Source of the DNA: Chrysomallon squamiferum
Lineage: Eukaryota > Animalia > Mollusca
Assembly: GCA_012295275.1 (NCBI GenBank)
Contig: CM022679.1
Span: 10,106,001-10,170,000, forward strand
DNA length: 64,000 bases
Reading direction: 5' to 3'
Positions 1,403 to 50,027 of this stretch are shown here, piece after piece. The notes under the pieces are model-generated. The model saw only the letters and a list, made by a program, of their open reading frames with translations, had not been told where the DNA came from and ran no database searches. The position numbers and the translations under genes were made by a program. The stretch's first letter is position 1, and every line of letters begins with the position of its first letter.

Positions 1403-1451
1403 CTACATGATTACATGGAAGAACGCACACGAAACATGAACCATTTCCCAT
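1403..1451 (-). CDS. Candidate alternative first coding exon (Gly2 plus Cys N-terminus), phase 1
   Basis: tga ATG GGA AAT GGT TCA TGT...GTA G|gtaaaa; MGNGSCFVCVLPCNHV; same phase as the exon I donor; preceded by a ~350 nt CpG-containing island. Confidence 0.55.
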
Positions 1452-3184
1452 TCAGTATTTTAATAGATTCTGGTGGACAGCGTGCCACGAATGACCATTT
1501 AGCATCTTTTAGCTTTATAATCCTGTCAAATGCGCTCATGTCAGATGCATTTAGAGTGAAAACTACGGTGGAAGGCCCCTGAAGACTGCACACAACACTG
1601 GCCAATTAGCTGTAACAGGATGGAATAATCAAGCATGGTGTACTGAGCCGTAAACCGGTACAATATCATGCAGCATGTTCGATATTCAATGGATCCGCAA
1701 ACAGTCCCAACAGACTCGCTGCTCAATTGTAATTCACTTTAACAACGATGATGGATAGGAGTGATCTTTCCACTTCCATAATTTGTCAAGAGAAAGTGGT
1801 GGAATACAATGTTTTTCATGAAAAAAAAAAAAGTCTTAATTAAGCCAAGGACACAGTGTTCTAAAATGAAGTGTTGGTCCTCTTTTTTATTCTTTTTCTC
1901 AACATGCAATGATGTTCTGAAAAGTCCATTTAATCAAAAGTCACAGTGTCCTAAGATGAAGTTATTAAGTAATTTTTCTCAACATTCATATTTGTTTTAT
2001 CAAAGACCATTTCAGAGAAAGACATCTATCCTATAATAATTTAACAGGTCTGTTTGCAAGCTCTAAGACAATGAGGTAGAGACTTAAAATAAAGAATCAC
2101 ATCCTTTTTTAAAGATATCTGTCCAATGCCAGAAAATCAAATTAAGAATACAATGTGCAATAATGATTTAACAAATCTTGTCAAAGAATGAGATTTTTGT
2201 TTTACAGCTTTTGCATTGGTTAATCCTTTAAATTGGCAGAGAGAATCGTCTATATACACAGTACGAAAGCCACTTGTGGCAGACTCTGAAACCAGCCACT
2301 GGGCACTGGCTGAAATGGCAAGAATCCAATCAACCTTTAGCACTAATACCAGTAACAGGATCATAAAGAAAGATAATAGATGTAACAAAAGGATGCTTTC
2401 TGCTTATCAAATGCAGCATCAGATTCACTACTTAGATGGTTTCAAAAATCCAAAACTGCATAAACAGCTTGAAGAGAATCCAATTTTTAATGGTCCATCC
2501 ATCAATTTGATACTTTTAATGGACAGAAAATTTTCATATCACAATCAGGAAGAATGCAGCAACATATTCCATGCTTTAATATTGATCTATTGTCTAAAAT
2601 AAGTGCTAAAACCCAAGGACCAAAAAAAAAAAAGATATAATCAAATGATCAAGCTCTGGAAATGATGACCATATCCACTGATTATGAATTGCAGTGGAGT
2701 TTCAGCTCATAATCTATAACCAGTATCAAATTCAATGTTTAGAGATCTAAGGCTGTTGTGATGATCCCCATCTCAGTGGTAAAGCCATCAAGCTTAAAGG
2801 AATTGGACAAAGTCCAACAGCATCAAATCAGAGCTAAAAGGAGAGGTATAAAGCTATTAAGCCAAAAGATGTTCCCTTATCATCTTGTTTTTTTTTTTTA
2901 AATAGTAACTTGCTACCACTCTGCTTATCATTCTGAAAATATCCCGAAAATAAATTCTGATAAATATTTCAAATATGTAACTTTTATCTCCCAAATTTTT
3001 AATGATAAAACAAAATATTAATTCATCTTAGTTTTAATTTATTGTAAGTATATGGATCCCATACTCATTCAAAATGATAAAAGTTGTGTTATAAGAACTT
3101 ATAACACTCCATTTTGTATAACTTTTGTTTAATATTCTCACTTTTAAACCAGCTGATAATAAAAATCTTTACTAATGTTAAAAT

Positions 3185-3545
3185 AGGTCTATGGTAGCCT
3201 TTTATTTCCTGTAACAGTAGTCTATGATAAACTTGTTTTAAATGTAACAGTAGTCCATGACAGGAATGTCTTAACTGTAATAAAATTCCATGATATGCTT
3301 GTCTTAACTGTAACAGTAGTCTATCATAAACTTGTCTTAAATGTAACTGTAGCCCAGTACATGCTTGTTTCAACTTTAACATTGGTTCATAACAAGGCTT
3401 GTCTCAATTATAACAATAATCCACGACTTGTTTGTGTAAATGTCCTGCAATGCTTCTGTGAAAGTCCTGTCTTAACTATAAAAATCTGTGATAATCTTGC
3501 ATGCAGTGTAACAATAGCTACACGACATTAATTGTAACTACAGCC
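3185..3545. repeat. 33-bp minisatellite
   Basis: Unit ~cttgtcttaactgtaacagtagtctatgataaa; explains the 11-aa periodic ORF 3089..3382. Confidence 0.85.
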
Positions 3546-3618
3546 TATGGCAAACCTGCTTAAACATTGTGTATGCCTCTTCAGTGTGTTAAGTATTAGC
3601 TTTTCTGCATTCACGTAC

Positions 3619-3795
3619 CTTTCATTGGACTTCTCGTCATATGTAGTTGTAGTGGTGGTGGTGGGAAGACGTCTTCAGGTGTATGGGGTCCGTGGCCGTT
3701 GGGGACGTATCCCTGGCCACGATGAAGTAGGTCAGGCACTTGGGGCATTCCGACAGGCTTCGACTGCTGCATAGATGCTTGTTGTTTGGAGATGG
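3619..3795 (-). CDS. CASKIN: Caskin exon I (Pro-rich linker after SH3, phase 1 to 1)
   Basis: ttgcag|CC ATC...AAA G|gtacgt; 177 nt, GC-rich, open in the frame set by exon H: (T)ISKQQASMQQSKPVGMPQVPDLLHRGQGYVPNGHGPHTPEDVFPPPPLQLHMTRSPMK. No recognisable homology, so supported by phase and splice signals. Confidence 0.85.
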
Positions 3796-4003
3796 CTGCA
3801 ATTGATGTGAAGAAATAAATAAAAAAATAAATAAATAAATAAAAAAAACTTACAAAACAAGTTTTTAATAAAACAAGTGTGGCAGGCAGGTTGTTAAAAA
3901 CTTTGTGTAATATTTTTAATGCAAGTTATAACTGAGATATATACAGCAGTCAGGTGTGTTAGTGAGAGACATACAGAAAGAATAATAGAAGAGAGATTAA
4001 TAT

Positions 4004-4099
<96 letters not shown>

Positions 4100-6402
4100 T
4101 TTTTGAAAGATATAAAGAAAAAAGGGGCAGATACAAAAATGTTATACTGATGGAGAGATCGTGTTAGAAAGAAAAAAGAAAAAATAGATAAAATGTAGGA
4201 GGGTATGCATCTGAATATGACAGAGAATGGGGAAAAGAAGGGGGGGGGTGAGAGATAAAACAAATTTAACATAATGCATTAAAAAACAAAACTGCAGAAG
4301 AGATTATGCTTATTAATATGAAAACCTATAAAATATGTGTATACCAGGAAATGTTTTTAAAAAACTATTGAAATAAAATACTTTTTAATTTTGTGTCACA
4401 AAATGGGGTCAAATGATAATTACAACCATGTGGCTAAAACAGAAAATCTGAAGACATTCAATAAGTTTCTACAAGTCATTATTTTTGTACTTGTAAAATA
4501 AAAAAAACCTGTAGCTAATAATAAAGTATGACAGCAAGTTTTTGTGATGTCATAAAAATGTTTTCAGGAAATAAACAAAAATGGAAGCCTTTGTTCATCT
4601 CCACATCCATTCCTGTTTTATAGTTACAAGTTTTTATTTTTATTTTATTATGATTATTATTATTATTATTCTTTTTTTTTTTAAATACTGACAATGGATA
4701 AACTATACTTAACCCTTTTTTTTGCATGATGAGAAATATTTTAACAAAAAAATAAAATTCAGTATAAAGATAATTTAAAACATGAATTAAAAAAAAAAAA
4801 TATATATATATATATATATATTAACCTCTTTAAAAAGGTAAAGTAAAAAAAAAACCTCAAACCTTAGTCTATATGAAATATGATAACTTATTTTTGTCAC
4901 TGAACTGAACCGAACAAGACCAATATCAATAGCAAATGCAAAATGATTTACAATTCAGCTAAGGTGAAAATATTCAAGTTAAACTGTGGCTAAAAAAAAC
5001 CCCATCTCCACATTTAACTATCTGTGCAGGAAACTGTAATTATCATTTGTTGATAATTCATGTAACATATGCTGTAAGCTGCCAGATAAAACTAACATGT
5101 CAACAACTCTTTATTTTCCTATTTGTTTCTGCTTTATGATTCTTTATGAATCTTTTTACTTAGATAATTTGTTGCTATTTTCAACAAAAAAACGTGGCAT
5201 GTTTTCAAGACAAATTCGTAATCTATCAGATTAGGGTCATAATTTCGGAGAAACATGAGTATTACAGTCGTGATCTTTTAAGAAAATTGAATATTATGTC
5301 AGAAACGCGTCATTAAATATAACCGATCGTTTTTTTAAAAAAAAAAAATAAAAATAATAAAAAAATATTTTTACTCAGCCTGTCTAGATTTTTCGCTTTA
5401 CTCAGTCTGTTTAGTATATTGTTATTTTATTTTTTTCCCCTTCTTCATGATCGGCTACGTATTTTCTTACCAGGGTTATAAACCACACATGTTGTGTGTA
5501 TCACTGTTTCAGTTGAGTAATAAAACAAGTGAGGTTATTGTTTTTAGGCAATAAATTCAACCATCTGTCAAATACGTTAATCTCCATATACAAATCAGCA
5601 CAAACAAAATGTGGAAAGATCATGCCTTGTCAACTATGCTGGTAACTTTCTTCTACTGATATTTACTGTGTCGGTTTTTTTATTTTTTTTTTTTTTTTTT
5701 TTGTTGTTGAAAGTATTTAAAAGTAACAAGACAAGATTGAAAGATACCCAGATAAAAAAAGACAAAAGAGATATAGGAGAGGGGGAAGATTAAGTAGTGA
5801 GTGAGTGAGTGAGTGAGTGAGTGATAAAGAGGGGAAAGAATGAAAGAGAAAAACAGTAAAAGAAAAATAGAAAATCTGAAACAAAAAAAACAGATTAACA
5901 GACAAATAAAAAGACAATAGATTTTGACTGAGAGGGAGATGCTAAAGCAGAAAGAAATGGATACAATGAAGTACAAAGGGAGAGAGAGAGAAGAGTACAT
6001 TTATTTTTTGTGGAAAATTGATTAATTTTATTAGTACAAAAAATAAGATAAAATAAATTAAAATAAAATAAAATAAAATAAATAAATAAATAAATAATAG
6101 TAATAATAATATTATAAGATAGATCTGTAATTTTATAATTAATTTATTTACAGTTTAGACAGAAATTCAAAAAAACAAAAATCAGCTCATTCATAGAAAA
6201 AGCTTGACATCCGTGAAAACAGAACATTTTAAAACATCTATTAAATTCATGAATGAAAATAAAGTGTCAACTGGTATGTATTACATAACTTTAACAGAAC
6301 GACCGACTGCTTCAAATATTCTAAAAATTATTGCCCCTAATCTGTCCTGTAAGGAAAAAATTTCACACATACAAACAGACATACATAATAATGTACACTT
6401 AC

Positions 6403-6514
6403 TTTGACTGTCCACAAGAACAACATGGTTGGATGGGAATAGGCCAGTTTTGGCCATTCTGCCTGGCTGAATTATCTGACCCTTCCAGATGCCATCAGGT
6501 TTCTGTTCCAGCAC
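6403..6514 (-). CDS. CASKIN: Caskin exon H (C-terminal half of SH3, phase 0 to 1)
   Basis: ctgcag|GTG CTG...CAA A|gtaagt; 112 nt; VLEQKPDGIWKGQIIQPGRMAKTGLFPSNHVVLVDSQ. Confidence 0.95.
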
Positions 6515-6676
6515 CTGCAGTAACACAAAGTAACACAGTGTATGCGTTTTGTTAAAACAGAAACATTGTTATACAAGTGGCTTATCTCAAAAATTTGGTG
6601 TGAGTTGATGTACAAAGTGTGCATATCTGATAAAATATATGGCAAAATAGAGAATATTTCTGAATTATGTCGTTTA

Positions 6677-6709
<33 letters not shown>

Positions 6710-6727
6710 GATTATTATTATTATTAT

Positions 6728-6762
<35 letters not shown>

Positions 6763-7419
6763 ATACTAGTAGTTGTTGTTGTTGTTGTTGTTGTAGTAGT
6801 TATTTATTTATTTATTTATTTATTTCTTCATTTATTTTTAAATAACAAAATCAACACATTTCTTGCCTATACAAATTACACACAAACTAAAAATTAATAA
6901 AAGCATTGGTAAAAAAATAAACAATAAAATAAAAATAAATACAATTTTCATTAAACATTGAAAAGAAAATGATTAAAAGGGAAAAATATAAAATAAATAA
7001 ATAAATGATAATAATGATGATAATAATAATAATTGAATAATTTAGTGATACTGTAAAATTATAAATACAACACAAGATGATAAATTTACAATACATTAAA
7101 AACATGGAACTGAAGTCGGTAATAAGCTGACAAACCAAGAAAGACAACTCTTAATAGCTTGTCGTTTCAAGTGTTTAGGGAAATTCCAGAATATTAGCAT
7201 TCAAACGTAAAAACACACACAAACACACAAAAACACAAATCAGATGTGATTATTTAATCTTTGAAAATCTCAAAGCCTCTATAAAATGTTATACAGCTTA
7301 ATAAAAAGTAGCAAATGAATATCCCCAGCACAAAGTTCATATGATGTTGAATACAAATAAATGGATCAGTGTTATATAAATGCTGGTGTATCATTCTTAA
7401 ATCTTTTAACATATTTTTT

Positions 7420-7795
7420 TTTTTTTATCTGTAACACAAAAACTCTGTAAGATAAAACACTCTTTGCAACACATAAATTCTCCAACACAAAATTGCTAAA
7501 AAAAAATGTGTGCAACACAAAAACATTAACACATAAAGTCAAATAATAAACACTAACTGTATCATATCAAACCTCTATAATACAAATAATCTCTCTGTAA
7601 CACACACTCTCTTCAAAACAAAAACTCTAAATCAAACTCTCTACAACACAAAAACTCTGTAACATAAACTCTTATAACACAAAAAACTCTACAGCACACA
7701 AAAAAAAAAAAAAAATCTACAACAAAAATTCTCTAACACACAAAATCTCTCTCTATAACATAAAAAAGCCCAGTAAAAAAACTCTCTCTACAACA
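7420..7795. repeat. Diverged short-unit tandem repeat (~17-20 bp)
   Basis: Recurrent aactctgtaacacaaa-like units. Confidence 0.7.
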
Positions 7796-8136
7796 GGCCA
7801 GTGTTGGAATGTGCTGTACGTAGATGGTCAGTGTGGTTTATGTTTGTTTTCATCAGGTTTGACGACTGGCAGAGAAAGTGATTAAACCTGAGTGACATGC
7901 TGACTCTCACCTGTCATTCTCGTGTTCATTTACCTGGTGTTGTTTTGTTTTTTGTTTTTGTTTTTTTACCTATCTGCTGAACAGTGGAAGAATTCAACAG
8001 AGTGCTGCTACTTCAGTTTAACACACTGGAGTTCTGTTTTCAGTTCTCAGTAACTGGCATGTGTATATGTACACAACAGGCTCAGTTTATTATGGTTATT
8101 ATTATCATTTTAAATTATTTTCTATTACTGTTACTT

Positions 8137-8183
<47 letters not shown>

Positions 8184-8794
8184 TTATTTATAAATCTATT
8201 TATTTATTTGTTATTTTATTTATTTATTTGTTATTTTATTTATTTATTTATTTTGTTGTTGTTGTTGTTTGTTTTGGGGTAGTTGTTTGCACACTAACAC
8301 TTGAACATTAAAGCATGTATGAATTAATTTAAGATGCACAAAATAAGGGATTGAGCCCTGTTATGGAAAAAAAGGGGTCACTTAAATTATGCTGGATGTA
8401 GTTTTCAAGATGGGTGATATTAAAAAAAAAATAATAATAATTAGTGATAAGAAAAAAACAACAATATAAATATATATATAAATCTGTTCAGGGGCATGTG
8501 TGAAGGTTTACATGTGAGACAGAAATCATACATAATTCATACATACCAAACATGAATAGAAACATAAACAATTACTAAAGGTGCAGAGATATGTAAACAG
8601 CAGTGACACAGGTTAATATCACTAATCGTAATTAAGGGATTAGAAACGACAAGCTGTAATCCAGTAATCATTGTCATGTAACAAGAAGAGCAAAAAACCC
8701 AATGATGATAATGATGATGATGACAACATTAGCAATATTTTGTTTTTGTTTTCTGATTTCAGTCACTCTCCATCAATGAACTGCTTTCTTTTAC

Positions 8795-8800
8795 ATCATC

Positions 8801-8846
<46 letters not shown>

Positions 8847-8851
8847 TTATA

Positions 8852-8884
<33 letters not shown>

Positions 8885-8970
8885 GTCATAATTATAGCAA
8901 CAACAATAGTAATAATTGTAAAAATTATTATAACTGCATTCATAATCACAATAAAAATGATGCTGATGAA

Positions 8971-9054
<84 letters not shown>

Positions 9055-9105
9055 AATAATAATAATAACAATAACAATGATAATAATAATGATGATGATG
9101 ATGAT
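8795..9105. repeat. Compound trinucleotide microsatellite (AAT/ATT/GAT/CAT)
   Basis: Directly visible; source of the homopolymer ORFs 8671..9189. Confidence 0.95.
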
Positions 9106-9558
9106 AAAACACCTCCTCAAGCTCCCAAAATAAGCCAGAATGAAATACAAGAAATTACCGAATGCTCCAACAAACTCCAGATGTAACATGTTGGCTTTGC
9201 TATTTATATTTGTTTTAGTACTAAGTGATCTGTTTTGTTTCCCAGAATATGTCTGAACTGTGTCAGTTCAGGTATAAACCATGCCACACAGTGAGTGAGT
9301 GAGTCATTCTCATATACATACATATATACTATGCTAATCAATGCAAGGTTCATATCAAATAGTATGTAAAACAGATAATATAACATAACGTATGGTGTAA
9401 TATAAAATGATGTATGTGCTTAGGTATGCATACAAATAATAACATACCTTTCCCCCCTCCAGAAAAAAAAGAAGAAAATAAAACACACCATCAGATCTCT
9501 AAATATATGTAAAGTTAAACACAGAGAGTAATAGACGCTGCAAAATATACCCATGCCC

Positions 9559-9635
<77 letters not shown>

Positions 9636-9708
9636 AACAGAGAGAGAGAGAGAGAGAAACAGAGAAACTGAGAGAAAAACAGAGAAACTGAGAGAGAGAG
9701 AAACAGAG

Positions 9709-9767
<59 letters not shown>

Positions 9768-12282
9768 GAGAAACAGACAGACAGAGAGAGAGACGTGTTC
9801 TGTATTTAAATATATATGCATTCATTCACATCAAAATACATGGCCAAAATACCTACAAATTAAATTTTTTTTGAAAATACAGTAGTTAAAAAAAAAAAAA
9901 AAAAAAAAAACTGTATAAAAATATAATGATAAATGATATATAAAAAAAATTTATATTTAAAAAAAAAAAAGACTATAATAAACAAATAAAAAAAAAAAAA
10001 AAGACTAAAATTTATATCAAATTAAAGAAAAGAACATTGTAAACAAAATAAATGGAACAAAAAAAAAAAGTCTTGTTAAACAAAGGACATTTAAGCAACC
10101 CAATAATAACTGGAAGAAATAAATAAAAGAAATGAAGAGAAATAAACAACAACGATCAACGGCTAAGTCCAAAAACACACACTGATCTCCGAAGCCAGTA
10201 AAACACTTCTACACAGCAATCTGATCTCCACTACAAAAGAGTTACAGGTAACTCAACCCTCCTTGAAAGGCAGTGCTAAAACCTCTCTACCCATACTTAC
10301 CTAAGCATAATCCCATAAAACACCTCGTTAAGGTAAGACCAACTCAAAGCATTGACAAAATTAACACATACAGAAAAATGTTTGACTTCTAGCCATTTCG
10401 CAACATCTGAATGATTAAAAAAAAACAAAAAAAAATTTCCCTCCTTTTTTTTTTTTCGTGATTTTTTAGGTTTTTACTTTTTTTTTTTTTTCTCTCTTTC
10501 CTGACAGAGATATTATCACAAGTGGTTGGGATGTGCACAAAAGGTGTCAAATTAATCCCCACTACAAGGGGAGGGAAGTGCTTAGTCAACACGTGTTGAA
10601 AGAAGAGTTCGCTTCTCTTTTCTGTTAAAAAACGTTTTTTCTCTTTGATGTTGACCTTTTTGAATTTTTTTTACAACTTCGGACCATCCTGCCAATGTCT
10701 ATAAAGAAATTCCAGATTTATAATACTCTTCTTCTCATTTATGTTATTTTATTTCTATCTTTCTTGGTTCCTTTTTGTGGGTTTATCTTACTTTTAAAAA
10801 AAAAAAAATGAAAACAACAACAACAAAACAAAATGGGTGAACACAAAAGATCAAACATAAAAATCAAACCTCAGAATTATCAGTCGAAGCAGTTAGAAAT
10901 ATAATGCACAATTTTATGTTTGCTAACAGAATAAAAATTTATAAATATGTATTTTAAAATTTATTTTAAATGTCTATTCTATGAATTTAAATGAAATAAA
11001 TGTTTTAAGTTTAATCAGATTTCATTTTACGAGGTACTTCTAAGTTTTAATATTTCACAACTAGATGTCAGTTAAATTAGAATCTTCAAATCAGTTTTTT
11101 TTGTTTGTTCTGTTCAAATTCTTTTGAAGAGTGTCTGTGTGTGTTTGTGGGCATATATGTGTGTCCATGTATTTTCGAGTATATTTAAATGTTTTTTTTT
11201 TTTGTGTTTTAACCTACATATATTTGTACATATATGTTCATATCTATCTGTCTATTTGTTTGTCTGTCTGTCTGTATATATATATATATATAAAAACAAG
11301 AAAAAGATTTATACCCATAAATTAAAAAATAATAATATATTAAAAAAATAAATAAATACAATTTTATTAAACAAGTGACAGATCTGTGTCAGAAACTCAG
11401 AATATATATAAAGATAGAAAATGAATACGACACAGCAGAATCAGTACATGAATATAAACTAATACATTAACACAACACGGTAAAGTGACTGTTATAAATA
11501 CCACACTTCAAGTCACTATTTTAAATTAACATAACTCAAGACTACATACATACATACATTTACCTCGATACTAACAGACCCATGTAATTCTAGTGTCAAG
11601 ATGTCACTGATGGCTGGGATTCACCCTCAAATTACTGCCACCCTGCGGACTTGTGTGTTTGTTCAGTTCACAGTTTATTAATATGAATGTAGATTAGTCA
11701 CTGCATAAACACAAATATTGCAACTCGTCACTGTGTACATATATACAGTGTGACACAGTGACCAGTGTGTGTGTGTGTGCTGTACTTAGTGTAACCGAGG
11801 TAAGCAAGGTGACACCTCTGTTGTCACATACAGGGTGTAACCGTACAGTGTCAACCCTCAGACAGTTTTACGATGTCTTTCGCCACCAGGTTTACTGTAC
11901 ATCATCAACCAGTGGGGAAAAAAAAAAAATTAAAAAAAAAATAATAATAATAATACTACCCTCAGAGAAAGGGTGTGGAATGAGGGAAAGGAGAAGACTG
12001 GGGGTAGGGGAAGAGGAAGGTTTTAGTATGGATGCTTGTAGAATATTATTGAAGCAAAATTAAAAATGTTTTTTTTTTTTTTATTTTTTTAAATGAATGA
12101 AGTTGTTAAGTAAATATTAGTTATAGTAGTGGTAGTGGTACTGGTAACTGTGGTGGCAGTAATTGTGGTAGTAGTGGAAGTAATGGTGGTGGTAATGGTG
12201 GTGGTGATGGTGGTGGTGGTGATGATGGCAGTGATTCTAGCAACAGTGGCAGTTCCAGTAATAGTGGCAGCAGTAGTAGTGA

Positions 12283-13544: not shown

Positions 13545-13586
13545 CTTTGCCTTACGAACAAAACATCCACACCCGAATATCTCCAT
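13545..13586 (-). CDS. Candidate alternative first coding exon joining exon H
   Basis: ATG GAG...GCA AAG|gtaggt; MEIFGCGCFVRKAK, phase 0 as exon H requires. Confidence 0.45.
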
Positions 13587-14059
13587 TTTGAATATGATCC
13601 ATCCACAGAACAGAAGAAACAAAAAAAAATAAAAAATAACAAATCCCTAAAATTCCACAGTGACACAAAGAAAAAGCCCTTATCACAGTGTCCTTGCAAA
13701 TGGTAATCTCTTCACTTCTGAAAGGGTAGAAATTAATAAATGGACAGGAGAAAAAGAAATAGAAAAAAAAAAAACTTGGCAGAGAGCTGTTTATTGTATT
13801 CTGTGATCCCAGCACAGCACAAGCAGATGTGTTGATTTGGTGTTTGGAAATTCCACTGGACAGGGTTCACCTTCGTCTCTGTGTGTTGACAAAAGCCTGC
13901 CTCTCAAACATTTGTATAACAGTGAATGATCAAAGCAGGGAGACTCAACATTACTTGGCCCAGGCATGCTGCATTCTTGACATGTGTAATACTGTTAGCT
14001 GATGGCCTTCGTATCAGTGGAGAGCAAAAAAGAGAGAGAGAGAAAGAGAGACACAGAGA

Positions 14060-15540: not shown

Positions 15541-16070
15541 GGCTTTATCGGATGATACATAAGCTCTTCACTGTGTGTATGAATCATACAGAGAAGTGGA
15601 TCTGAGTGTGTTCAAACTGAAAGAGAACCCTATAAATCAATTGGTGTCCAGTTTACCTGTCTCACCTGAACTGACCTCGTCAGGTCACCAGGTCGAGACA
15701 TGTTTTAATACTGTGTGGGGATACAAAAAAAAAAGTATACACATAAAATATATTTTGGACATGTTTTTATCCTCCACATGTTTAGAATATACAAAACATG
15801 TATACTTTTAAGTTAATACAAGTTTCATATTTAAATATATCTATTTCAGATAATAAGATATTCAGAAATTACAATATATATGCTTTGAAAATTCTTCGAG
15901 ATTTATAGCCATACAATGATACGTGTAAATATATATGTACATCATGTGTGTGTGGTGTGTGTGTTTAAATCTGATAATTAATGTGTGTGTGTCTGTCTGT
16001 CTGTCAGTCTATTCTCTTTATGTGTTTATGTAAATATATATGTATTTATGTATATCTGTTCGTGTGTTCA

Positions 16071-19497: not shown

Positions 19498-19592
19498 TGT
19501 AATGATATCCCCCTCTTTAAAAGAAAGACTCTGCGGGTCGTACAAGCTAAAGTAATCCTTGACAGCCCTGGCTTGACATGCAGAACTTGCTT
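19498..19592 (-). CDS. CASKIN: Caskin exon G (N-terminal half of SH3, phase 1 to 0)
   Basis: atttcag|AA GCA...ACA|gtaaga; 95 nt; (E)ASSACQARAVKDYFSLYDPQSLSFKEGDIIT (cf. Caskin EASAALQVRATKDY...GDIIT). Confidence 0.95.
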
Positions 19593-25812: not shown

Positions 25813-25888
25813 CTGGCACGCCCTGCCCCACACACGCACAACCCACACAGTCCTTCCCCCCAAGACACTGTGGCAGGCAGAACTTCAT
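25813..25888 (-). CDS. Candidate alternative first coding exon (Cys-rich N-terminus) joining exon G
   Basis: In-frame TGA 4 codons upstream; ATG...CCA G|gtaagc; MKFCLPQCLGGKDCVGCACVGQGVP, then G+AA = E gives an in-frame join to exon G; GC-rich island. Confidence 0.6.
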
Positions 25889-31744: not shown

Positions 31745-32130
31745 TACCTGTATTTAATGTTGTTAATATCTACCTGTATTTAACAATTTAACATTAATAC
31801 TTACCTGTATTTAATTTTTTCTAATACTTACCTGTATTTAACCTTGACAAATACCTATCTGTATTTAACACTAATACCTACTTGTATTTAATGTCATTTA
31901 ATATCTATCTGTATTTAACATCATCTAATATCTACCTGTTTTTAATGTTTTCTAATACTCACCTGTTTTTAACATTATCCAATACCTATCTGCATTTAAC
32001 ACTAATACCTACCTGTATTTAACATTGTCAAATATTTACCTATATTTAACACTGTGTAAAAACCTACCTGTATTTAACACTGTCTAATACCAACCAAGTT
32101 TTAATATCATACAATACCTACCTGTATTTA
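31745..32130. repeat. ~27-bp minisatellite, ~15 copies, carrying CAGGTA on the minus strand
   Basis: Unit ~taatacctacctgtatttaacattgtc. Confidence 0.9.
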
Positions 32131-39745: not shown

Positions 39746-41101
39746 AATTACTGGGGGAAAAAAAAAAAAAAAAAAAATGGCAAAAATTCTAAAAACGTGA
39801 TATCCTCATTATCCTTGAACAATATTTAGATATAAAAAAAAAAAAAAAAACCCTGAAAAAAACATACCTAGAAATTATTACATTTTTAAAAAAAAATTTT
39901 AACCTTCAAAAATTTTAATACAGTTGTTGGAGGAGGCGAGACAGAAGACAGGTGACGACTGATGATTCAGTAGCTTCAGGTGGAGAAAAAAAGCTGCACA
40001 GCATGCTGGTCCCATCTGTCATCGTCTCATCAACTGGGACTGAATTATTCTCTGCAAGGCAACAATACCCCCAGTCACTGGAGCACTGGCAGGCTTCTTT
40101 CCACCCGAGAAGCCTGCACAACACTCGGTTTGTTCGCAGAGCTATAAAAGAGATTAAGAGCTCAGAGCCTACCCTGTGAGCAAACACACATGGGACAAAC
40201 GTCCTCGTTATGCAAGGCAAAGTTGCATAAAATGACTGGGACAAAGACGGCAGTGTGTGTGCAGTGGGTTTTTAAAATGAAGAAGAAGAAAGAATGAAAG
40301 AAAGAAAGAAAAAAAAAAAATTAGTCTTATAATGACGCGATTTGAAAAAAAATGTAAAAATTTTTTTTTTTTTTTTTTTTTTTGGTTAAGGAGAAAAATA
40401 TTTTTAAAAACTAAATAATTTTTTTATTTTTATTTTTATTTTTATTGTTCCTGTTCTTATAACAAAACAAAGAACACAGAACTGCTGAAAGTTTCGTAAG
40501 ATGGTTGACCCAAGGTGATCCTGACCTTGTTCGACCTGCGACCTCACGACCTCAGACAAATGCCTCAAATCTTCTGGTACTGAAAAGGTTGTGTTTTTAC
40601 CACCAGCGGAGGTTTGTGTTTGTTAGTGAGTTATTTATCCAAACCACACAATGGCTTTTCTGATGCTCAGGTGAAGTGAAAAAACCAACAACAATAACAT
40701 AATAATATCAGCTCATTATTTCTGATAACCATTTGTCAACAATTTTTTTTTTTTTTTCTCTTCAAGATTTTTAAGGTGTTCTGTGCAGAGTGTTAAAGAA
40801 AGGGAACAAAATATCTTGAAGTGGAAAGTGAATGATGTATAATGTTGATAAATTATCAGGTTCAATATCTGAAGATATCAGGTATTCTGAAGTAGTAAAT
40901 TTATCTTTCAAACACACGATGATTCAAATTGAAATCGGTATAAAATAAAAAAATTAAAAAATAACAATAAAATAAAATAATAATAAATATTGAAAAGACA
41001 ATTAATGTCTAACAATAAATATTATTAAAAAAAATAAACAAAAAACAGTTGGTAGCAGTAGAAGTAGCTGTAGCATCTGCAGTAGTAGTAGTAGTAATAA
41101 C

Positions 41102-41158: not shown

Positions 41159-41326
41159 CATAATATTAAAACATTTTTTTTTTTTAAATATAAAAAAATA
41201 AACCCAACAGATACATAACAACAACCACAACAATAAAAATCTTTATAAAAAAAATTCCTCTAACAATAAAAACAAAAACAAACTAAATTAACACATAATC
41301 ATCACAACATTTTTTTATCAACTTAC

Positions 41327-41435
41327 CTTTTAAAATATGCTTCAGTTCTTTGGCCGCCTTGTTGGACGTGAACTTGTTCACAATGTCCAGCGCTGTCTGG
41401 TCGTAAGAGTTTGGCTTGTTTACATCAATGCCACA
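41327..41435 (-). CDS. CASKIN: Caskin exon F (last ankyrin repeat and linker, phase 0 to 1)
   Basis: ctttcag|TGT GGC...AAA G|gtaagt; 109 nt; CGIDVNKPNSYDQTALDIVNKFTSNKAAKELKHILK. Confidence 0.95.
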
Positions 41436-41704: not shown

Positions 41705-41737
<33 letters not shown>

Positions 41738-43039
41738 GGTTATAACAGATTACTAAAGATGGATAATTTTTTTTAAATTGTCAATAATAGTCTGTAGAAA
41801 ATAATTATTTTTAAAATTATTTATAACAGATTTTTTTTTTTTTTTTTTTTTTATTTATATATAATAGTTGATTGATAATATTTATTTTATTTATTTTAAA
41901 TAATAGTCGATATAATATATAATTATTGTTTAAATTAAAATAATGGTTAATAATATATCTTTTAAAATTATGTATAATAAGCCTGTTTGTTCTGAATTCA
42001 TAAAAACTGTGATAATGTTTGTTTATTTTAAAGAAAGAAAATATTTTAATTCATAAATATTTATTAAAATTATCGCTGAACTTCATGACTGAAAAAAGTT
42101 AAAACGAAATAAAACAACAGAACAAAGTCTATTATTATTAGATGGGGAAAAAACTGTGTGAGTGTTTGTACTGTGTGTACTTATTTCAATATGCTTTTTA
42201 ATTAATTTATTATTAGATTAACTCTATAAAACTCATTGACATCACATTAATTTTAAATTAAAAAAAAAAAAAAAAAATTAATGTAAATTTTTCTTTATTA
42301 TAAAGAAGATTTTTTTTTTTGGGGGTCATATATGTAATATTTCTTCCTTTCCTCTGCTTTTCTTGGTTTATCTTTTATTTCTTGTTCTCATTATTTACAT
42401 TTCTTTCATTCTCTCTTTCAGACACACACACATAAACATACACATGTGTATGTATGTATGTATGTATGTATGTGTGTGCATGTATGTATGTATATGTGTA
42501 TGCATGTATATGTATATATGTATAGACACACACAAACACTTAAAAGGTAATTATTAATATTCAGATCTATTGACATTTGTTACCCAATGTGGTTAACTAA
42601 CAAAAACAGCAACGATTTTAACTGATCTTTACATATTAATTACTCTGCATTTCATGTCACTTTATTTTCTTTTCTCCTTCTGTATCAAGATTTCTTCCTT
42701 TCACCACCTATCACAAAATGCGTCTTCACATTATCTGTGCACAGCCAATTTGCATTTTATGGTTTATTTATCTACCAGCAAAAACCTTACTGCACTAAAT
42801 ATGCAAACTTCTTATATCAACAACTGCATTGTAAAACTCACCAATGTTGATATAAGAATTTACTCTGGTAATAAATCTTATAAATAATACACTTTCTATC
42901 ATCTGTACATAAACAAAAAAGCCCCTTTGACCTAGAGAAAATTAACAAGCTTAATTTGTATGACAGACACATAGCCAAAATATGCTAGGAAGTGAATGAA
43001 ATAATTAGATACCCATATCGAATGACAGAGAATGCAAGG

Positions 43040-43600
43040 GTAACATGGTAACAGTATATCTGCATTGTTATGTAAGCAGTCTGTAGTTGAAAGTCCAGTT
43101 TTAACACTTCGTTGGTAACATTTTATCTGTGTTATGTCAGCATTCTACAAGTTTTAACAAGTTATTGGTGATATATGTCCTGAACTTTCTGTTTACTGCA
43201 GTTTTAAACTATGACGTTGGTAATATATTTGTATTATGAATCATTCTATATTCATTATACAAATTTTAACATGTTATTGGTAATATGTTATCCAAACTTA
43301 CTGTTTACTAGTTTTAAATATATGGAGATATGGAGATAGTAATATATTTATATTATGAATGCATTCTATATTCATTATACAAGTTTTAACACATAACTGG
43401 TAAAATATTATTAAAATTTTCTCCATTTACTACAGTGGTTTTAATATACAGGGTTGGTAACATATTTGTATTATTAACATGTTCTGTATCACTCATGCAA
43501 ATTTTAATAGGTTATTGGTAATATATTACCTAAACTTTATTAATACATAGGGTTGGTCACATGTCTGGATTATCTAAACTTTATCTATTATATATATTTA
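43040..43600. repeat. Diverged ~55-65-bp tandem repeat
   Basis: Recurrent gttttaac....ttggtaatatatt. Confidence 0.7.
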
Positions 43601-45222
43601 CATTATTTTTTTTTTAAATTAATATCTCTTTTATTTAAATTTTAATTTAAATAATAATTGATAATATATCTGCTTTCTCAAACCTTTTTCTTTTTTTTGG
43701 TGTAAACATTTGATTTACTAGTTAAATTAATTAACACTAAATAGTAAATAGGTGTGCATAAAATCTGAATCTCCATATGTGCATACACCAATTTTTTTTT
43801 TAACAATAAAGAAAATGAAAAAAAATAAAAAATTCAGATAAATATAAAACTATTAATCTGATTAAAACAATTAACAAGGAATGTATAAGGTTTGAAAAAT
43901 TAAATTAACTACAAATTAAAATAAATGTATGAAGTTCACCTACTTTAGTCATTCTCATTCGAATGTAACTTGGTCTTCCTGCCATGGATTTAGATATGAA
44001 CCAGTTGTATTTTTCATTAGACATCTTTATAAATTAATTATATCCACAAGTTTAAAAAATTCCAAGAAAAAGATCCAGCAACACACTTATATGAATCCAT
44101 TTTCGTAAAGAATTAAATTTCACTTTAAAAAACAGCACTTTTAATATTATAAAAAGGAAAAAAAAGAAAAAAAAAGAAAAAAAGAAAGGAAAGCCACTTT
44201 TGTAAAATCCAGTGAAATTATTTGTTTTCGTTTTTTTCTTAACAATTCAAAAAAACCTCACAATGTTACGAATTCAATGAAATTTTATATGAATTTTGAT
44301 TTCTTTATATTTTTCCAATACACAACTCAATTTCATAAGCAACAACAAAAAGAAACAATAGATCTCCCTTCCATGAAATTAATTGAAATTTTGAAGGTGT
44401 TTTTTTTTTTTTTTAAGGATATAGTTAAGATCCTAATAAATATTAAAGAACAAGAAAAAAAGAAACAGTTCTTTGAATTATTTGCTAATCAGCTGATACG
44501 TTTTTTGAGGAAAAGTTAACAACAAAAAACTATCTTATTATTAATTAACTCTTAAACGCAGGAACAAGAAAAAAAAAGAGGATAAAAATCCAGATTAATA
44601 TTTTGGCGATTGTTTCCAAAACAGCAAAGAAAATGTAAACACAAAAAATATTCCTATAATTCCTGGTAAACATTTATATTATGATTATGTCATTCCAGCA
44701 GAACAGTACAAAATTCAACAGAAGAATCAAAATCAAAATCATCTAATCCAGAAGTATTTGTATTTCTTGATGTTTTTCCATGTTTTGTATTAAAGCAAGT
44801 TACCAGTTCAGTAAATATTCCTATAAATTCAGGCCCAGTTGAAAATTGCTGTATTTTCCTTCATCTTTTGCAATAATATAACTGAGAACTGATCCAAGAA
44901 ATAGAGAGAAATTAAAAAAAAGATTTCAGTAAATCAGAAAACATTTGTAATTTTTAGTACAAGATATAAATAATATAGCAAAGAAATGATCCTCAAAAAA
45001 CAAAGAAACAGAAAAATAAAAACATTTATATAAATCAGAGTATATTTGAAATTTTTAGTTATGAATTTTTAATTATTATTTTTTTTTTGCAACAGAGAGT
45101 CAAATCAAGAAACTAAAACAGAAAAAACCCCAAAACAAACAACAAACATTTCTATAAATCCTGATAAATTTGCAATTTCAGAACTGAATCTCCACAACTT
45201 TCTGAAAACACCAAAGAACAAG

Positions 45223-45253
<31 letters not shown>

Positions 45254-45629
45254 AAGAAAGACATCCATTCTCACAACTCCAGGAAAAGATTATTGTGTAT
45301 TTTACTACTTGGGCCAACATCTAACCCAGTAAACACCAGCAAAAGAAAACAGGTGTGACTGATTATATCAGAAATGAAGTAAACACAAACATTTCAACAC
45401 GCTTTTAACCTCTGTTTTGCACAAAATGAAGGAATTCCTCAGTAAGTTGGGTAATAAAGGAAAGTCAAAAGAAACGGTTACCACCATCAATCAACAAGAC
45501 TGTTGAAATAAAAAAAAAAAAAAAAAAAACAACACTTATGGAGATTAAATCGATTGTAAACATGACTTCCAAATTAGTACATTGGTTGTAACTTGCAGGT
45601 GAAAAACAACAAGCAATAATTCACAGAAT

Positions 45630-46130
45630 TCTAAGGAGTAAATCCCCAAATCCAATGTAGTAAATCCCAAAATCCAAAATAGAAAATTTCAAAAACCTAG
45701 GCACTAAAATCCAAAATCAAATGTAGTAAATCCCAAAATCCAGTACAGAAAATTCCAAAATCCTAGCAGTGAATCCCAAAATCTGATATAGTGAATGCCA
45801 AAATCCAATGTAGTAAATCCTGAATCCAATATAGAAAATTCTAAAACCCAAAATCCAGAATAGTAAATTCTAAATTGTAAGCAGTAAACTTCAGAATCCT
45901 AAGTAGCAAATACCAAAATCCAAAAGCACTAAATCCAAGAATTCTAAACAGCAGTATCATAATCCTAAGCAATAATAAACAAATCCTTAGCTTAAATCCC
46001 CAAACCTCCAAGCAGCTAATCAGAGACTCCCTAGCTGTAAATCTCAGAAAACTAAGAAATAAATCCCAGAATCCCAAGCAGTATATCCCAAAATGCTAAG
46101 CAGCAAATCCTAGAATCCTAAGTAATAAAT
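45630..46130. repeat. ~21-bp diverged minisatellite
   Basis: Recurrent aaatcccaaaatcctaagtagt. Confidence 0.85.
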
Positions 46131-47473
46131 TCTTCTCCCCCAAAATTAAAATTATTCAAAGAAAACATGTCCAACTTATTCATCATGGAACGTAACAGGA
46201 AAACAATTACTGGGTGCTTATGAACTTGAATATTAAAAAAAAAAAAAAAAAAGCAAAATTGCTAAGAGAAATACCTAAAAAATATGCACTGACATTAAAT
46301 AAAAGATCAGATCTGATAATAGCTTATGACATACAGAAACAAATATGTTATGGCGAAATGAAATTGCATTAATACATTAAGTTCCATAGCAAGTATAAGT
46401 AGAAACAGCTCTAAAAACAATGTGTATATGTGTGTGTGTGTGTGTGTGTGATATTCCTCTCTATTTATACTTACAAGATATTAAAGTGCCTAACCTCCTG
46501 CCAGCCGGAAGATATAGACATCAATAGTGATGAGGATTGAGGGATTTTTTTACAGGGCGTAAATGTCACAACAGAGATAAAACCATCAAGATAAAGTATG
46601 GGCAACCTGTTTCTTAACTGTATCATGCTCTCCTTATACTAACACGAAAAATGTAGGTTAATTTTGTTAAATAGTGAAGCACTTGTAGATTGATTCAGAG
46701 AAGACAAGAGGAATCCCATTACTTAAATTGAGCTTTCAGATGTAGAATGGGTTTTTTTTTTTTTTTTTTTTTTTTTGTAATGGAATAAATATTAATTAAA
46801 ATGAGAAGTTTTCAGAATGATTGGCAGACCATTGGTGACATTATTGTTTCAGTTTGAAATTTTGAATTGTTTATAACCAAATCATACGCGTAAATAAATA
46901 AAAGATATTAATTAATTAGTTAATTAAAATAAATGAATAAATTAATGAAATTTGTAATTTTAATTGAGAGAGAAAGAAAGAGGAAGAGATTTAGAAATAC
47001 TTCATCCAGAGAGAGAGATGGAAAGAAATATATCTAGAGAGAAAGAAAAAGAAAGAGAAACAGACTGACAAACAAGAAGAACTGAATTTTGCTATTCCTA
47101 TTTCAGTGTGTAAGTAATTTATAAAATAAATGTGACAACTTCGGAACAAAATTATTCCCTGTGCTATCGTTAGTTTGGTTATGAGTTTGTTAAGTGTTAT
47201 AGCAAATTGTTCACAGCAACTCTCAAAATACAACAAAAGCCTTCAGTTTTACTGAGTTCATAAAAATATACTCCCAGGAGTGAGATGAATATGAGAAATA
47301 AATGAAGAGCTTGTCAAATAAAATGACAAACACTCCAGACTACTTCATCTTGGTATCAAACATTTCATCTTTTTATTTCAACTTAATGCAGTTAGAACAT
47401 GAATTCAAATTATTGGAATTGTTCTATATGTTTTATGGCCATCATTTTAAATTGTCTCTAAACAGCATCTTTA

Positions 47474-47513
<40 letters not shown>

Positions 47514-48385
47514 ACGTCTCATAATATGATATGAGTAATATTTAAGCTTCATGTACATTTTTATTTCATTAGTTGTATTATTTTTGTTATTGTTGTTGTT
47601 GTAAATAACATCTTTAAACCTATAAATGTATATAGAAGTATGTCTCATAATACAAGATGAGAAACATAACCTTCATGTATATTTTCATTTCATTAGTAAT
47701 GTCATTTTTGTTACAGTTGTTATTAAAAGATACTGGCTATGAAACTCTTGTGTTAGTTACTACCAACTTTCTTTTCATTTAATTTTTTTTCTTTCCAAGT
47801 TTTCTACTTATGTCTTGTCTTTTCTGTTTATATTAATGTGTATCTCACTCTAATCTGTATCTATATGTGTCTGTGCATCCACTTTCCATTCTGTATTTAT
47901 TGTTTTCCCTTTCTCCCTCTCTCCTTCTCTCCCTTCTTCTCTTTATCTTTTCTCTCCCTTTCTCTTTTTCTCCCCTTTCTCTCCTTCTCTCCTTTTTTCC
48001 TCTCTCCCTCCCTTGCCAAGTAACTTTAAAATTAAAGCCTATTTCAAATGATAGCAGCTACATTACGGTATGTTACTAGTGCCAACACATCCAGATAAAC
48101 TCTGACCACGAGGCCATGTGCAGTACTGAAAGACAGATCAGTCTTTTCATCAGAGCTGGAACTGATACAGCCAGTTGTGTGTCAGGCAGAGAGAAAGCTG
48201 GCAGTCTATGGCCAGGTACCTGAGCCATCCTCGGTGTCAGTGTTATCAGCAGGGTGTTCAAGTTTTATTTCACAAACACGCTCATCACTCTGAATCTTCA
48301 AACTTCTCACATGTTCACTGCAGCTGGACAGTTTATCTTTTTATCTCTTGCAGGAAACTTGGTGATGCAGCCCTTGTGTTTTGTG

Positions 48386-48440
<55 letters not shown>

Positions 48441-50009
48441 GTGTGTGTGTGTTTATGTGTTGTGATGTGTTGTGTGTGTTGTTGATGCTGCCTCATGAGA
48501 GACAGAGACAGAGACAGAGACAAAGACAGAGACAAAGAGACAGAGACAGAGAGAGCAAGAGCAAGAGAGTGAGAGAAAAAAGAGAAAGACCATTAATCTT
48601 TTACATATAAAAATGTACATAGTTAATTTGTAATTTTTAAAGTTTTCTCTGACTTAAATTTTCTTAAGGTAACAATTCTTAGCCATTTCTGGAAAAGAAG
48701 AACATTGACTTAGAACTCCTCTGATACTGTGATGTAATTTCTAACGATGAAAAAGATGAGATTATTTCAACAAGCACATATGTACTCAAGTATAATATTT
48801 AAAAACAATTTCTTTTTCCTCATATAGTATACTTTGTTTTGACAAAATTACATGGTTTGCTCAATTTTCCAGTCTTGTTTTACTGCTAATTAACTGATAA
48901 CATTTTAAAAGAAACTTATTTTTTTTCTCATGAAAACACAGTCAAAGCTAACAATAAAATATTTTTCATTGTTTTATATAGATTATATTCATGTATGTAC
49001 CAAATTCTATAATAATAATAATAATAATATTTCTTTAAAAATAAGAAGTTTAAAAAATAAATGAAACATATTGTAAGAATATAAAAACCAGTAAAAAAAA
49101 TAATAATAATATTAATAATACAACTAGAAATTACCTTAATTAGTAAAGAAATGAATGAATGAATGAATGAATATGGAAGTATACTCATTGAAGTTGACAG
49201 TGAATATCTTGTTTTTTTTAATATCCTAGTTAATCATCTGATAAAAATCATGTAAAAATAATAATAAACAACTGCTAATATCTGCTGAATGAATCATTGA
49301 TATAAATTTTTTATTTTTGTTTGTTTATTTTTTTTTTTCCTAAAATCAATTTTTCTAAATGTTTATTTAAGTCTGGGATTGCTTTTTGTGACACCCCCCC
49401 ACTTTTAATTTTTTTGTTTTGTTCAAAAGAACAAATTTAATAGTCATTTTAAAAAGTAAAAAAAGCTATTTATTTTAAATTTAAAGAATCGGTTGCGTTT
49501 TTTTTTTGATATTTCTTTTTATGAATATTTAAATAATTTTAACTCAATATTAAATTTAAAAGAAATAAGCGTATTTACTATATTGTAGTTCAGTGACTTT
49601 TAATTTATATATGTGTCTGCATTTGTGTGTGTGTGTGTGTGTTTGTTTGTGTGTGTGTGTGTGTGTGTGTGTCTGTGTCTGTGTATGTAAACAGAACCTA
49701 TGTATGTGAACTTGTAATGTTATCATTTACATTTTTTTTGAACAAAAATTTAAAAACAAAATTCTTCAAAGAATGCAATTTACTTTACCTTCTTTCTACT
49801 TCATGTATCAAACATTTTTTTTTAAAAAAAATTATTTTTATTTATTTTTCAAGACTATGAACACCAGCCAAGCTTTCTACACTACCATACCAATAAGTTG
49901 TAGATCACCTTTCAGTAGAAAACGCACCTGTAATATTTCATGGCCGTACAAAGTGGCAGGTGGCAGTTACAGGTAATCATCAGACTTCTTACAAACATCA
50001 ATTACCTAC

Positions 50010-50027
50010 CTGGAAACAATTCTTCAT
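50010..50027 (-). CDS. Candidate alternative first coding exon joining exon F
   Basis: ATG AAG AAT TGT TTC CAG|gtaggt; MKNCFQ, phase 0, giving MKNCFQ-CGIDVNK. Confidence 0.4.

What the first reader, a model, noticed from the sequence alone, without database searches (positions are those of the whole stretch)
1403..50027. Battery of intronic alternative first exons that may give truncated Caskin isoforms interchangeable lipid-anchor N-termini
Seen: the long introns contain high-complexity islands with an ATG (often just after an in-frame stop), a short open frame and a good 5' splice site. Four match the phase needed downstream and carry Cys near the N-terminus: MKNCFQ|CGID (50010-50027, to exon F), MKFCLPQCLGGKDCVGCACVGQGVP|E (25813-25888, to exon G), MEIFGCGCFVRKAK|V (13545-13586, to exon H) and MGNGSCFVCVLPCNHV (1403-1451, after exon I). 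Related units are MGLLVSR, MGLCL, MPCWCVTW and MCVCSQ. Established: Gly2 directs N-myristoylation by NMT, and N-proximal Cys clusters are typical DHHC S-palmitoylation sites (Src-family SH4, GAP-43, alternative first exons of PSD-95/SAP97). Inference: a multi-promoter system making a nested series (most ANK lost; SH3 onward; half-SH3 onward; tail only), each membrane-tethered. I know of no such description for Caskin. Caveat: some donor/ATG/phase coincidences are expected by chance in 64 kb.
Basis: partly seen in the sequence, partly recalled or inferred. Interest (0 to 1): 0.85.

Follow-up and report, generated by a model that had tools for sequence, protein, structure and literature searches.

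The report
Conserved cysteine-tipped short Caskin isoform
An intron of this snail's gene for the nerve-cell scaffold Caskin holds a small exon, matched in other snails and in clams, that likely starts a shorter protein lacking the ankyrin repeats and tipped with cysteines predicted to take a fatty-acid membrane anchor; the three other proposed start exons remain unproven.

Summary
The window holds nine exons (A-I, minus strand) of a gastropod Caskin gene, 83-96% identical to Gigantopelta aegis caskin-2-like. All four proposed units are at the stated places and in phase, but they are not equal. The unit at 25813-25888 is real: homologous Cys-rich leaders are joined to the same SH3 exon in annotated proteins of six other molluscs (three gastropods, three bivalves), and three oysters share its C-[LIV]-P-x-C motif. 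It gives an ankyrin-less SH3-SAM-SAM isoform, likely S-palmitoylated (untested). Relatives confirm a multi-start design, but only before exons F (7 of 14 RefSeq mollusc sets) and G (9 of 14), never with a coding leader before H or after I (0 of 14), and many of their leaders are basic or featureless rather than Cys-rich. The other three units have no homologue among 516 fetched proteins, and each has a flaw. Shuffles: chance level at ordinary donor strength, about 4% for the two strong-donor units. No paper found describes such Caskin isoforms. The scan had no Caskin note, only an analogous MAGI case on other DNA.

The parts
25813..25888 (-). G-alt: conserved alternative first coding exon, 25 codons + 1 nt, five Cys (C-x3-C-x5-C-x2-C-x-C), phase-1 donor; its homologues are joined to exon G
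   Evidence: Sequence; donor 13.0 bits; homologous leaders in Patella, Biomphalaria, Nucella, Potamilus, Sinanodonta, Mercenaria score 54-88 against shuffled maxima 39-48, 0 of 40 shuffles each; alignment.
50010..50027 (-). F-alt candidate: 6 codons, strong phase-0 donor; unproven (my estimate about 0.45)
   Evidence: Donor 12.2 bits; 7 of 14 relatives' sets have some leader before F; no homologous peptide; in-frame ATG at 50087 upstream; beside a tandem array
13545..13586 (-). H-alt candidate: 14 codons, two Cys plus basic end, phase-0 donor; unproven (about 0.3); may be the 3' part of a 173-nt frame-breaking exon starting at 13717
   Evidence: Donor 10.8 bits; no homologue; 0 of 14 sets with a leader before H; acceptor before 13717 and out-of-frame ATG at 13602; RNA contigs join G to H
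1403..1451 (-). I-alt candidate: Gly2 plus three Cys, weak phase-1 donor; unproven (about 0.2)
   Evidence: Donor 4.8 bits with a 7.4-bit out-of-frame donor 4 nt upstream; stop one codon before the ATG, most complex upstream sequence of the introns; no homologue; no joint or loose end listed at 1403
40173..40191 (-). Minor candidate, 6 codons, two Cys, phase fits exon G; unproven
   Evidence: Donor 9.2 bits; no homologue
10301..10316 (-). Minor candidate, Gly2-x-Cys4, phase 1: out of frame with exon H, in frame with exon I only if H is skipped; unproven
   Evidence: Donor 10.7 bits; no joint listed
62479..62576 (-). Caskin exon A (ankyrin repeat)
   Evidence: 91% to Gigantopelta P0001 residues 65-97
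60619..60764 (-). Caskin exon B (ankyrin repeats)
   Evidence: 90% to P0001 97-147; Pfam Ank E 4.9e-11
58805..58900 (-). Caskin exon C (ankyrin repeat)
   Evidence: 83% to P0001 146-186
57180..57310 (-). Caskin exon D (ankyrin repeat)
   Evidence: 96% to P0001 177-221
54745..54853 (-). Caskin exon E (ankyrin repeat)
   Evidence: 92% to P0001 222-257; Pfam Ank E 3.5e-5
41327..41435 (-). Caskin exon F (end of the ankyrin region; begins with a Cys codon)
   Evidence: tblastn to P0001 247-293; boundaries
19498..19592 (-). Caskin exon G (first half of SH3); acceptor for G-alt
   Evidence: 89% to P0001; Pfam SH3_2 profile positions 2-25, below the curated cutoff on its own; RNA G-to-H
6403..6514 (-). 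Caskin exon H (second half of SH3)
   Evidence: 85% to P0001; RNA joints in 3 of 4 runs
3619..3795 (-). Caskin exon I (linker after SH3)
   Evidence: 90% to P0001 364-421; RNA joint 3795/6403 at depth 51-142

Best explanation
The intron before the SH3 exon of this gastropod Caskin gene holds a first coding exon (25813-25888) matched in other snails and in clams, which likely starts from an internal promoter and is predicted to give an ankyrin-less SH3-SAM-SAM Caskin whose flexible N-terminal cysteines are likely S-palmitoylated. Shown: the exon's sequence, phase and donor; homologous leaders joined to the same exon in six other molluscs; further unrelated leaders before exons F and G in relatives, so the gene has several starts. 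Inferred: a promoter of its own; use in this species; palmitoylation by DHHC enzymes; the effect, a membrane-held isoform in which the anchor lies a short linker ahead of an SH3 that in human Caskin1 binds lipid, and which could seed SAM polymers at the membrane without ankyrin partners. The F-side unit is plausible but unproven; the H-side and I-side units and the minor units are more likely chance or non-coding/poison exons.
For: Homologous leaders: Patella vulgata X4 (P0125, XP_055955086.1), Biomphalaria glabrata X5 (P0140, XP_055874761.1), Nucella (P0018), Potamilus (P0156), Sinanodonta (P0157), Mercenaria (P0015); each finds G-alt as its best match in all six frames of the window, score 54-88, 0 of 40 shuffles reaching it. 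C-[LIV]-P-x-C near the start occurs in 11 of 516 fetched proteins, all of them leaders joined to exon G, from 9 species. What is kept is the N-proximal pair of Cys among hydrophobic residues; the rest of the leader drifts in length and sequence. AlphaFold2 model of P0125: residues 1-27 pLDDT under 50, SH3 and both SAM domains folded; SH3_2 passes Pfam's cutoff in P0125, P0140, P0156. Other leaders at the same junction are polybasic (Patella X3, Dreissena X6, Mya X6, unnamed P0025/P0252, P0382/P0399), a second common way to bind membranes (established knowledge). [quoted passage not shown]
Against: No lipidation assay or predictor was available. The orthologous proteins are gene-model predictions; that RefSeq models usually rest on RNA-seq is general knowledge, not checked per model. 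Gastropod leaders keep four Cys in C-x3-C-x5/6-C-x2-C spacing, which could bind a metal. Oyster leaders match only by motif (score 27-28, not above shuffles). Several leaders in relatives have no anchor-like feature (Pecten X4, Ostrea X12, oyster MLLTA-type). The model has low overall confidence (mean pLDDT 46) and 18 sequences, so it cannot exclude a small metal-dependent fold.
Confidence: 0.65

Rival explanations
1. The full battery is real: all four units are first exons from separate promoters and all give lipid-anchored, nested Caskin isoforms, three of them with lineage-specific peptides.
For: All four are in phase. Strong-donor Cys units exceed shuffles even without G-alt (14-17 of 400). 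Leaders before F turn over between lineages, so lack of homology is expected for some. GC upstream of the F, H and I units is at percentile 96-99. No vetigastropod or second neomphaline isoform set was among the fetched proteins, so the closest relatives were not sampled.
Against: 0 of 14 RefSeq mollusc sets have a coding leader before H or after I; no homologue of the three peptides among 516 proteins; I-alt's in-frame donor is the weaker of two; F-alt has an in-frame upstream ATG that would bury its Cys; H-alt would leave half an SH3; chance level at ordinary donor strength (74-90 of 400).
Confidence: 0.1
2. G-alt is a real first exon, but its cysteines bind zinc or form disulfide/metal-bridged dimers rather than taking palmitate.
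For: Four Cys in fixed spacing, ending in CxxC, in 4 of 4 gastropod leaders (window, Patella, Biomphalaria, Nucella).
Against: Three bivalve leaders keep only three of the Cys and the oyster leaders two, so a four-Cys site is not conserved while the N-proximal pair is; the leader is predicted unstructured.
Confidence: 0.17
3. The H-side and I-side units (and the 10316 unit) are real exons but act as frame-breaking cassette (poison) exons or as non-coding 5' exons; their Cys-rich frames are incidental.
For: Each has an upstream acceptor as pyrimidine-rich as the true ones (13717, 0.76; 1609, 0.71; 10406, 0.81; true 0.62-0.86), and inclusion gives a stop. Relatives have isoform models that start at internal Met codons inside or after H without a leader (Mizuhopecten X1-X4, Patella X5).
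Against: Such acceptors are common: 260 of 2000 random positions have one at >=0.8 within 200 nt. No such joints were listed. The internal-Met models may be incomplete.
Confidence: 0.25
4. All units, G-alt included, are chance ATG-donor coincidences in a TG-rich genome.
For: About 8 in-phase Cys/Gly2 units are expected by chance at ordinary donor strength.
Against: G-alt is homologous to leaders of six other molluscs at the same junction.
Confidence: 0.02

Closest known systems
Annotated short Caskin isoforms of other molluscs (Patella vulgata caskin-2 X4 XP_055955086.1; Biomphalaria glabrata X5 XP_055874761.1; Potamilus KAK3586043.1; Sinanodonta KAL3876272.1; Magallana gigas X3 XP_011429218.3)
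   Same: Same Cys leader (oysters: motif only), same junction, same SH3-SAM-SAM product.
   Different: They are automatic database models with no functional note seen; I found no paper that points them out.
[quoted passage not shown]
   Same: An alternative N-terminal exon supplies N-proximal Cys to a neuronal scaffold.
   Different: There the swap is at the tip and the main domains stay; here the exon lies deep in the gene and drops the whole ankyrin region. Palmitoylation is shown there, only predicted here.
Shank3 intragenic promoters (PMC4113141, abstract and outline seen)
   Same: A synaptic scaffold with several internal starts giving isoforms with different localisation.
   Different: The abstract mentions no lipid-anchor leaders; promoters are mapped there, inferred here; only two internal entry points with coding leaders (before F and G) are seen in molluscs.
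Drosophila Ckn and other insect Caskins
   Same: Short Caskin forms: the listed insect proteins carry SAM but no Ank or SH3 Pfam hits, and several start with a Cys in the first four residues (P0106, P0108, P0110, P0367). PMC5020537 (passage) says Ckn differs in domain composition.
   Different: Those are the main forms in insects, start after the SH3, and show no similarity to the window's leaders. The original Ckn paper was not held and was not read.
Scan note e1-7506352: Cys-rich alternative first exon of an arthropod MAGI gene
   Same: Internal Cys-rich first exon that replaces an N-terminal domain of a scaffold.
   Different: Another gene family and phylum; an unchecked AI note, not tested here.

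Membership tests
Caskin family | N-terminal ankyrin repeats | tested here: met
   Exons A-E 83-96% to Gigantopelta caskin-2-like; Pfam Ank on exons B and E
Caskin family | Single SH3 after the ankyrin repeats | tested here: met
   Exons G and H match the two halves of SH3_2 (each alone below cutoff) and 85-89% to P0001, whose SH3_2 passes the cutoff; spliced G-H in RNA
Caskin family | Tandem SAM domains and Caskin tail | not testable with these tools
   Lie beyond the window's end and no genome is held; tandem SAMs present in the orthologues, tail only below Pfam's cutoff
Palmitoylated N-terminal splice variant (PSD-95 alpha / GRIP1b kind) | Alternative exon that supplies the protein's N-terminus | tested here: met
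   For G-alt: homologous leaders begin annotated proteins of six species; in-frame stop 4 codons upstream, no acceptor within 350 nt. Not met by evidence for the other three units.
Palmitoylated N-terminal splice variant (PSD-95 alpha / GRIP1b kind) | Conserved Cys within the first ~10 residues | tested here: met
   C-[LIV]-P-x-C in the window and 9 species
Palmitoylated N-terminal splice variant (PSD-95 alpha / GRIP1b kind) | Demonstrated S-acylation and Cys-dependent membrane targeting | not testable with these tools
   Needs biochemistry
Palmitoylated N-terminal splice variant (PSD-95 alpha / GRIP1b kind) | Core domains retained, only the tip swapped | tested here: not met
   G-leader isoforms lack all ankyrin repeats: it works like these variants but is built differently
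Intragenic-promoter nested isoform series (Shank3 kind) | Several internal starts giving nested N-terminal truncations | tested here: inconclusive
   Seen in relatives before F (7 of 14 sets) and G (9 of 14), not before H or after I (0 of 14); in this species only G-alt is supported
Intragenic-promoter nested isoform series (Shank3 kind) | Mapped transcription start sites | not testable with these tools
   Only contigs were available, which cannot show starts
N-myristoylated SH4-like anchor (1403-1451 unit) | Gly2 at a true protein start plus nearby Cys | tested here: inconclusive
   Gly2 and three Cys are in the sequence, but exon use is unsupported

The most novel reading that the evidence does not exclude
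Invertebrate Caskin is an ancient multi-promoter gene whose internal first exons form a kit of interchangeable membrane anchors (di-Cys, Gly2-Cys, polybasic) set in front of the SH3 or the SAM tail; this snail uses several, including lineage-specific ones before F, H and after I; and the ankyrin-less Caskin of insects is such an internal-start isoform that became the main form.
Probability: 0.15. Interest if true: 0.75.

Novelty: new variant of a known kind. Interest (0 to 1): 0.5.

Why it matters
Caskins are described in the papers I read as full-length scaffolds, with membrane contact proposed through the SH3-lipid interaction and partners. A Cys leader kept between gastropods and bivalves suggests a second, ankyrin-less, probably acylated class of Caskin, which would tie SAM-polymer scaffolding and LAR-type phosphatase signalling directly to the membrane under reversible control. 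It can be tested at once in laboratory molluscs, since Biomphalaria has the annotated isoform, and it prompts a look for like isoforms in vertebrate CASKIN1/2 and for the origin of the short insect form. The principle itself (alternative N-termini with palmitoylation; internal promoters in scaffolds) is well known.

Tried and rejected
No whole genome is held for the window, so exons beyond I and a second look at the locus were not possible. RNA (4 runs, 1 study, contigs only, stretch 1200-11250): no joint or loose end listed at 1403, at 10301 or from 13545; 71 loose ends and 115 pieces were not shown and contigs drop rare forms, so this is no evidence of absence. Cover over 1447-3640 in all 4 runs (pieces at depth about 3-10) was considered as a long 5' UTR of the 1403 unit and set aside: one piece (3481-3640) runs unspliced across exon I's donor and other intron parts are covered as deeply, which fits pre-mRNA or DNA in the libraries. 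Two of the three main contigs begin 204 and 205 nt upstream of H, and F+G is 204 nt, so they start at F's acceptor; this could mark a branch there (another upstream exon or unspliced intron) but is only a weak hint. Metagenome scan with exon I gave one 36% match (L001), judged unrelated and not used. Relatives' other leaders (basic, MLCL-type, F-type) were searched against the matching introns: no credible homologue; the best non-G-alt hit (44, P0214 at 52590) contains a stop and lies in a tandem array. The best window hits of oyster leaders are low-complexity or antisense. The bacterial promoter scan does not apply to this animal gene and was ignored. The 50%-representative search added two unnamed basic Gly2 leaders before G but no homologue of the F, H or I units. 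Upstream ATGs do not discriminate: the real G-alt has five within 150 nt. Paper searches for a prior description: (listings and abstract starts only; none on Caskin first exons or acylation); term look-ups in PMC12646245 and PMC6856520 found no 'isoform', 'splic' or 'palmitoyl'. The library lacks most subscription papers, the Drosophila Ckn paper was not held, and no supplements were read; palmitoyl-proteome supplements could list Caskins.
Full report
Gene and host. The minus strand carries nine collinear exons (A-I) that match residues 65-421 of Gigantopelta aegis caskin-2-like (P0001) at 83-96% identity. A-F cover the ankyrin region, G and H the two halves of the SH3 and I the following linker. 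The host is therefore inferred to be a gastropod close to Gigantopelta. No genome is held for it. RNA contigs from 3 of 4 runs of one study join G to H, H to I and I to a further exon at depth 51-142; that exon starts in phase 1.

The observation. The supporting details are uneven. Donor scores are 13.0 (25813), 12.2 (50010), 10.8 (13545) and 4.8 bits (1403), against 4.7-12.1 for true donors B-I; the 1403 unit has a stronger out-of-frame donor 4 nt upstream (matrix from recalled frequencies). The 50027 ATG is preceded by an in-frame ATG at 50087 and sits beside a 22-bp tandem array, not in complex sequence. Of the minor units only 40191 fits the next exon.

Chance. Counting distinct in-phase ATG-donor units with two Cys in 12 residues or Gly2 plus Cys, over five introns (54 kb): 11, 4 and 3 at donor thresholds 4.5, 8 and 10 bits; antisense 6, 1 and 0; local dinucleotide shuffles 7.7-8.1, about 1, and 0.3, reached by 74-90, 10-20 and 3-4 of 400 shuffles. 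Without the G-side unit, 14-17 of 400 shuffles still reach the remaining two strong units. The criteria were set after the units were seen, so this is mild support for the F- and H-side units and none for the I-side or minor ones.

Conservation decides one unit. Three homologue searches, three cluster look-ups of 10 clusters each (at most 15 members listed per cluster) and one profile search gave 516 proteins. Six begin with a clear homologue of the 25888 peptide joined to exon G: Patella vulgata X4, Biomphalaria glabrata X5, Nucella lapillus, Potamilus streckersoni, Sinanodonta woodiana and Mercenaria mercenaria. Each finds 25888 as its best hit in all six frames of the window (score 54-88; shuffled maxima 39-48; 0 of 40 each). 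The motif C-[LIV]-P-x-C near the start occurs in 11 of the 516 proteins, all leaders before G, from nine species including three oysters; the oyster leaders share the motif only (score 27-28). Gastropods keep four Cys in fixed spacing, other bivalves three, oysters two; the rest of the leader drifts. None of the 516 proteins resembles the F-, H- or I-side peptides or the three minor ones tested, though a 6-residue peptide could not be recognised anyway.

The multi-start design is real in molluscs but narrower than proposed. Of 14 RefSeq mollusc isoform sets (some incomplete; Magallana is represented by one isoform), 9 have at least one leader before G and 7 before F; none has a coding leader before H or after I. 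Mizuhopecten X1-X4 and Patella X5 start at or next to internal Met codons in or after H. Single species have several: Patella one before F and two before G, Biomphalaria one and two, Ostrea two and three. Leaders before G include Cys types and polybasic types (Patella X3, Dreissena X6, Mya X6, unnamed P0025/P0252 and P0382/P0399), but also types with neither (Pecten X4, Ostrea X12). Leaders before F are mostly not Cys-rich, although very short ones (Patella, Ostrea, Lingula) put exon F's own first Cys at position 3 or 4. No homologue of these other leaders was found in the window's introns.

How it likely works. Shown: G-alt's frame is closed by a stop four codons upstream and has no acceptor within 350 nt, so it can only supply an N-terminus; its homologues give SH3-SAM-SAM proteins without ankyrin repeats. 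An AlphaFold2 model of the Patella isoform (18 sequences, mean pLDDT 46) leaves residues 1-27 unstructured and folds the SH3 and SAMs. [quoted passage not shown] I put exon reality at about 0.95 and acylation at about 0.65-0.7. The main rival for the Cys is metal binding; the loss of the distal Cys in bivalves argues against it.

The other units. F-side (about 0.45): strong donor and a junction used by relatives; two of three RNA contigs start at F's acceptor within one base, a weak hint of a branch; but the upstream in-frame ATG would move the Cys away from the tip. H-side (about 0.3): strong donor and good ATG context, but it would cut the SH3 in half, has an out-of-frame ATG 16 nt upstream and an acceptor at 13717 that would make it a stop-bearing cassette. 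I-side (about 0.2): Gly2, three Cys, a stop just before the ATG and the most complex upstream sequence, but the in-frame donor is the weaker one.

Known and new. The principle is known (alternative palmitoylated N-termini; Shank3 intragenic promoters, PMC4113141, abstract seen). The G-leader isoforms already stand in databases as automatic models. Seven searches on Caskin (listings only) and term look-ups in two Caskin papers found no description of internal first exons or acylation; subscription papers, the Drosophila Ckn paper and supplements were not seen. The scan's own notes held nothing by sequence and, by words, an analogous MAGI case on other DNA (unchecked). Listed insect Caskins have SAM domains only, and several begin with a Cys near the tip, which fits but does not show the bolder reading.

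Verdict. One conserved, apparently undescribed Cys-leader first exon and a real multi-start architecture; the four-member lipid-anchor battery is not established. New variant of a known kind; interest 0.5.

Noticed in passing
window 50154-51063: Tandem array of 41 copies of a 22-bp unit (89% matches) directly upstream of the F-side candidate; a second, looser 28-bp array at 52315-52779.
   Followed up: partly
window 31963-32025 (minus strand): Two near-identical ATG + 4-codon + strong donor units (12.2 and 14.0 bits), 50 nt apart, both in phase with exon G; they look like copies of a local repeat.
   Followed up: no
   Followed up: partly
window 15657-15701 (minus strand): One ATG followed by three donors (9.4, 12.4 and 8.7 bits), two in phase with exon H; no Cys.
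   Followed up: no
window 1447-1930 against 2020-2330 and 3060-3420: RNA contigs differ from the window at 0-4 letters per 290-410 nt just upstream of the I-side ATG but at 9-19 per 270-500 nt further up; could be constraint, but other intron pieces are also low.
   Followed up: no
proteins P0382, P0399 (unnamed): Leaders before exon G with Gly2, Trp residues and a Lys/Arg cluster, apparently from another animal lineage: a further anchor-like type at the same junction.
   Followed up: no
proteins P0106, P0108, P0110, P0367, P0074 (arthropods): Short arthropod Caskins with SAM hits only start just before the exon-I-like segment, several with Cys near the tip; chelicerates have both long and short forms.
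   Followed up: partly
proteins P0004 and P0234: Patella and Lottia share the same three residues (Met-Gly-Thr) before exon F, which places Gly2 and Cys4 in the Patella isoform.
   Followed up: no
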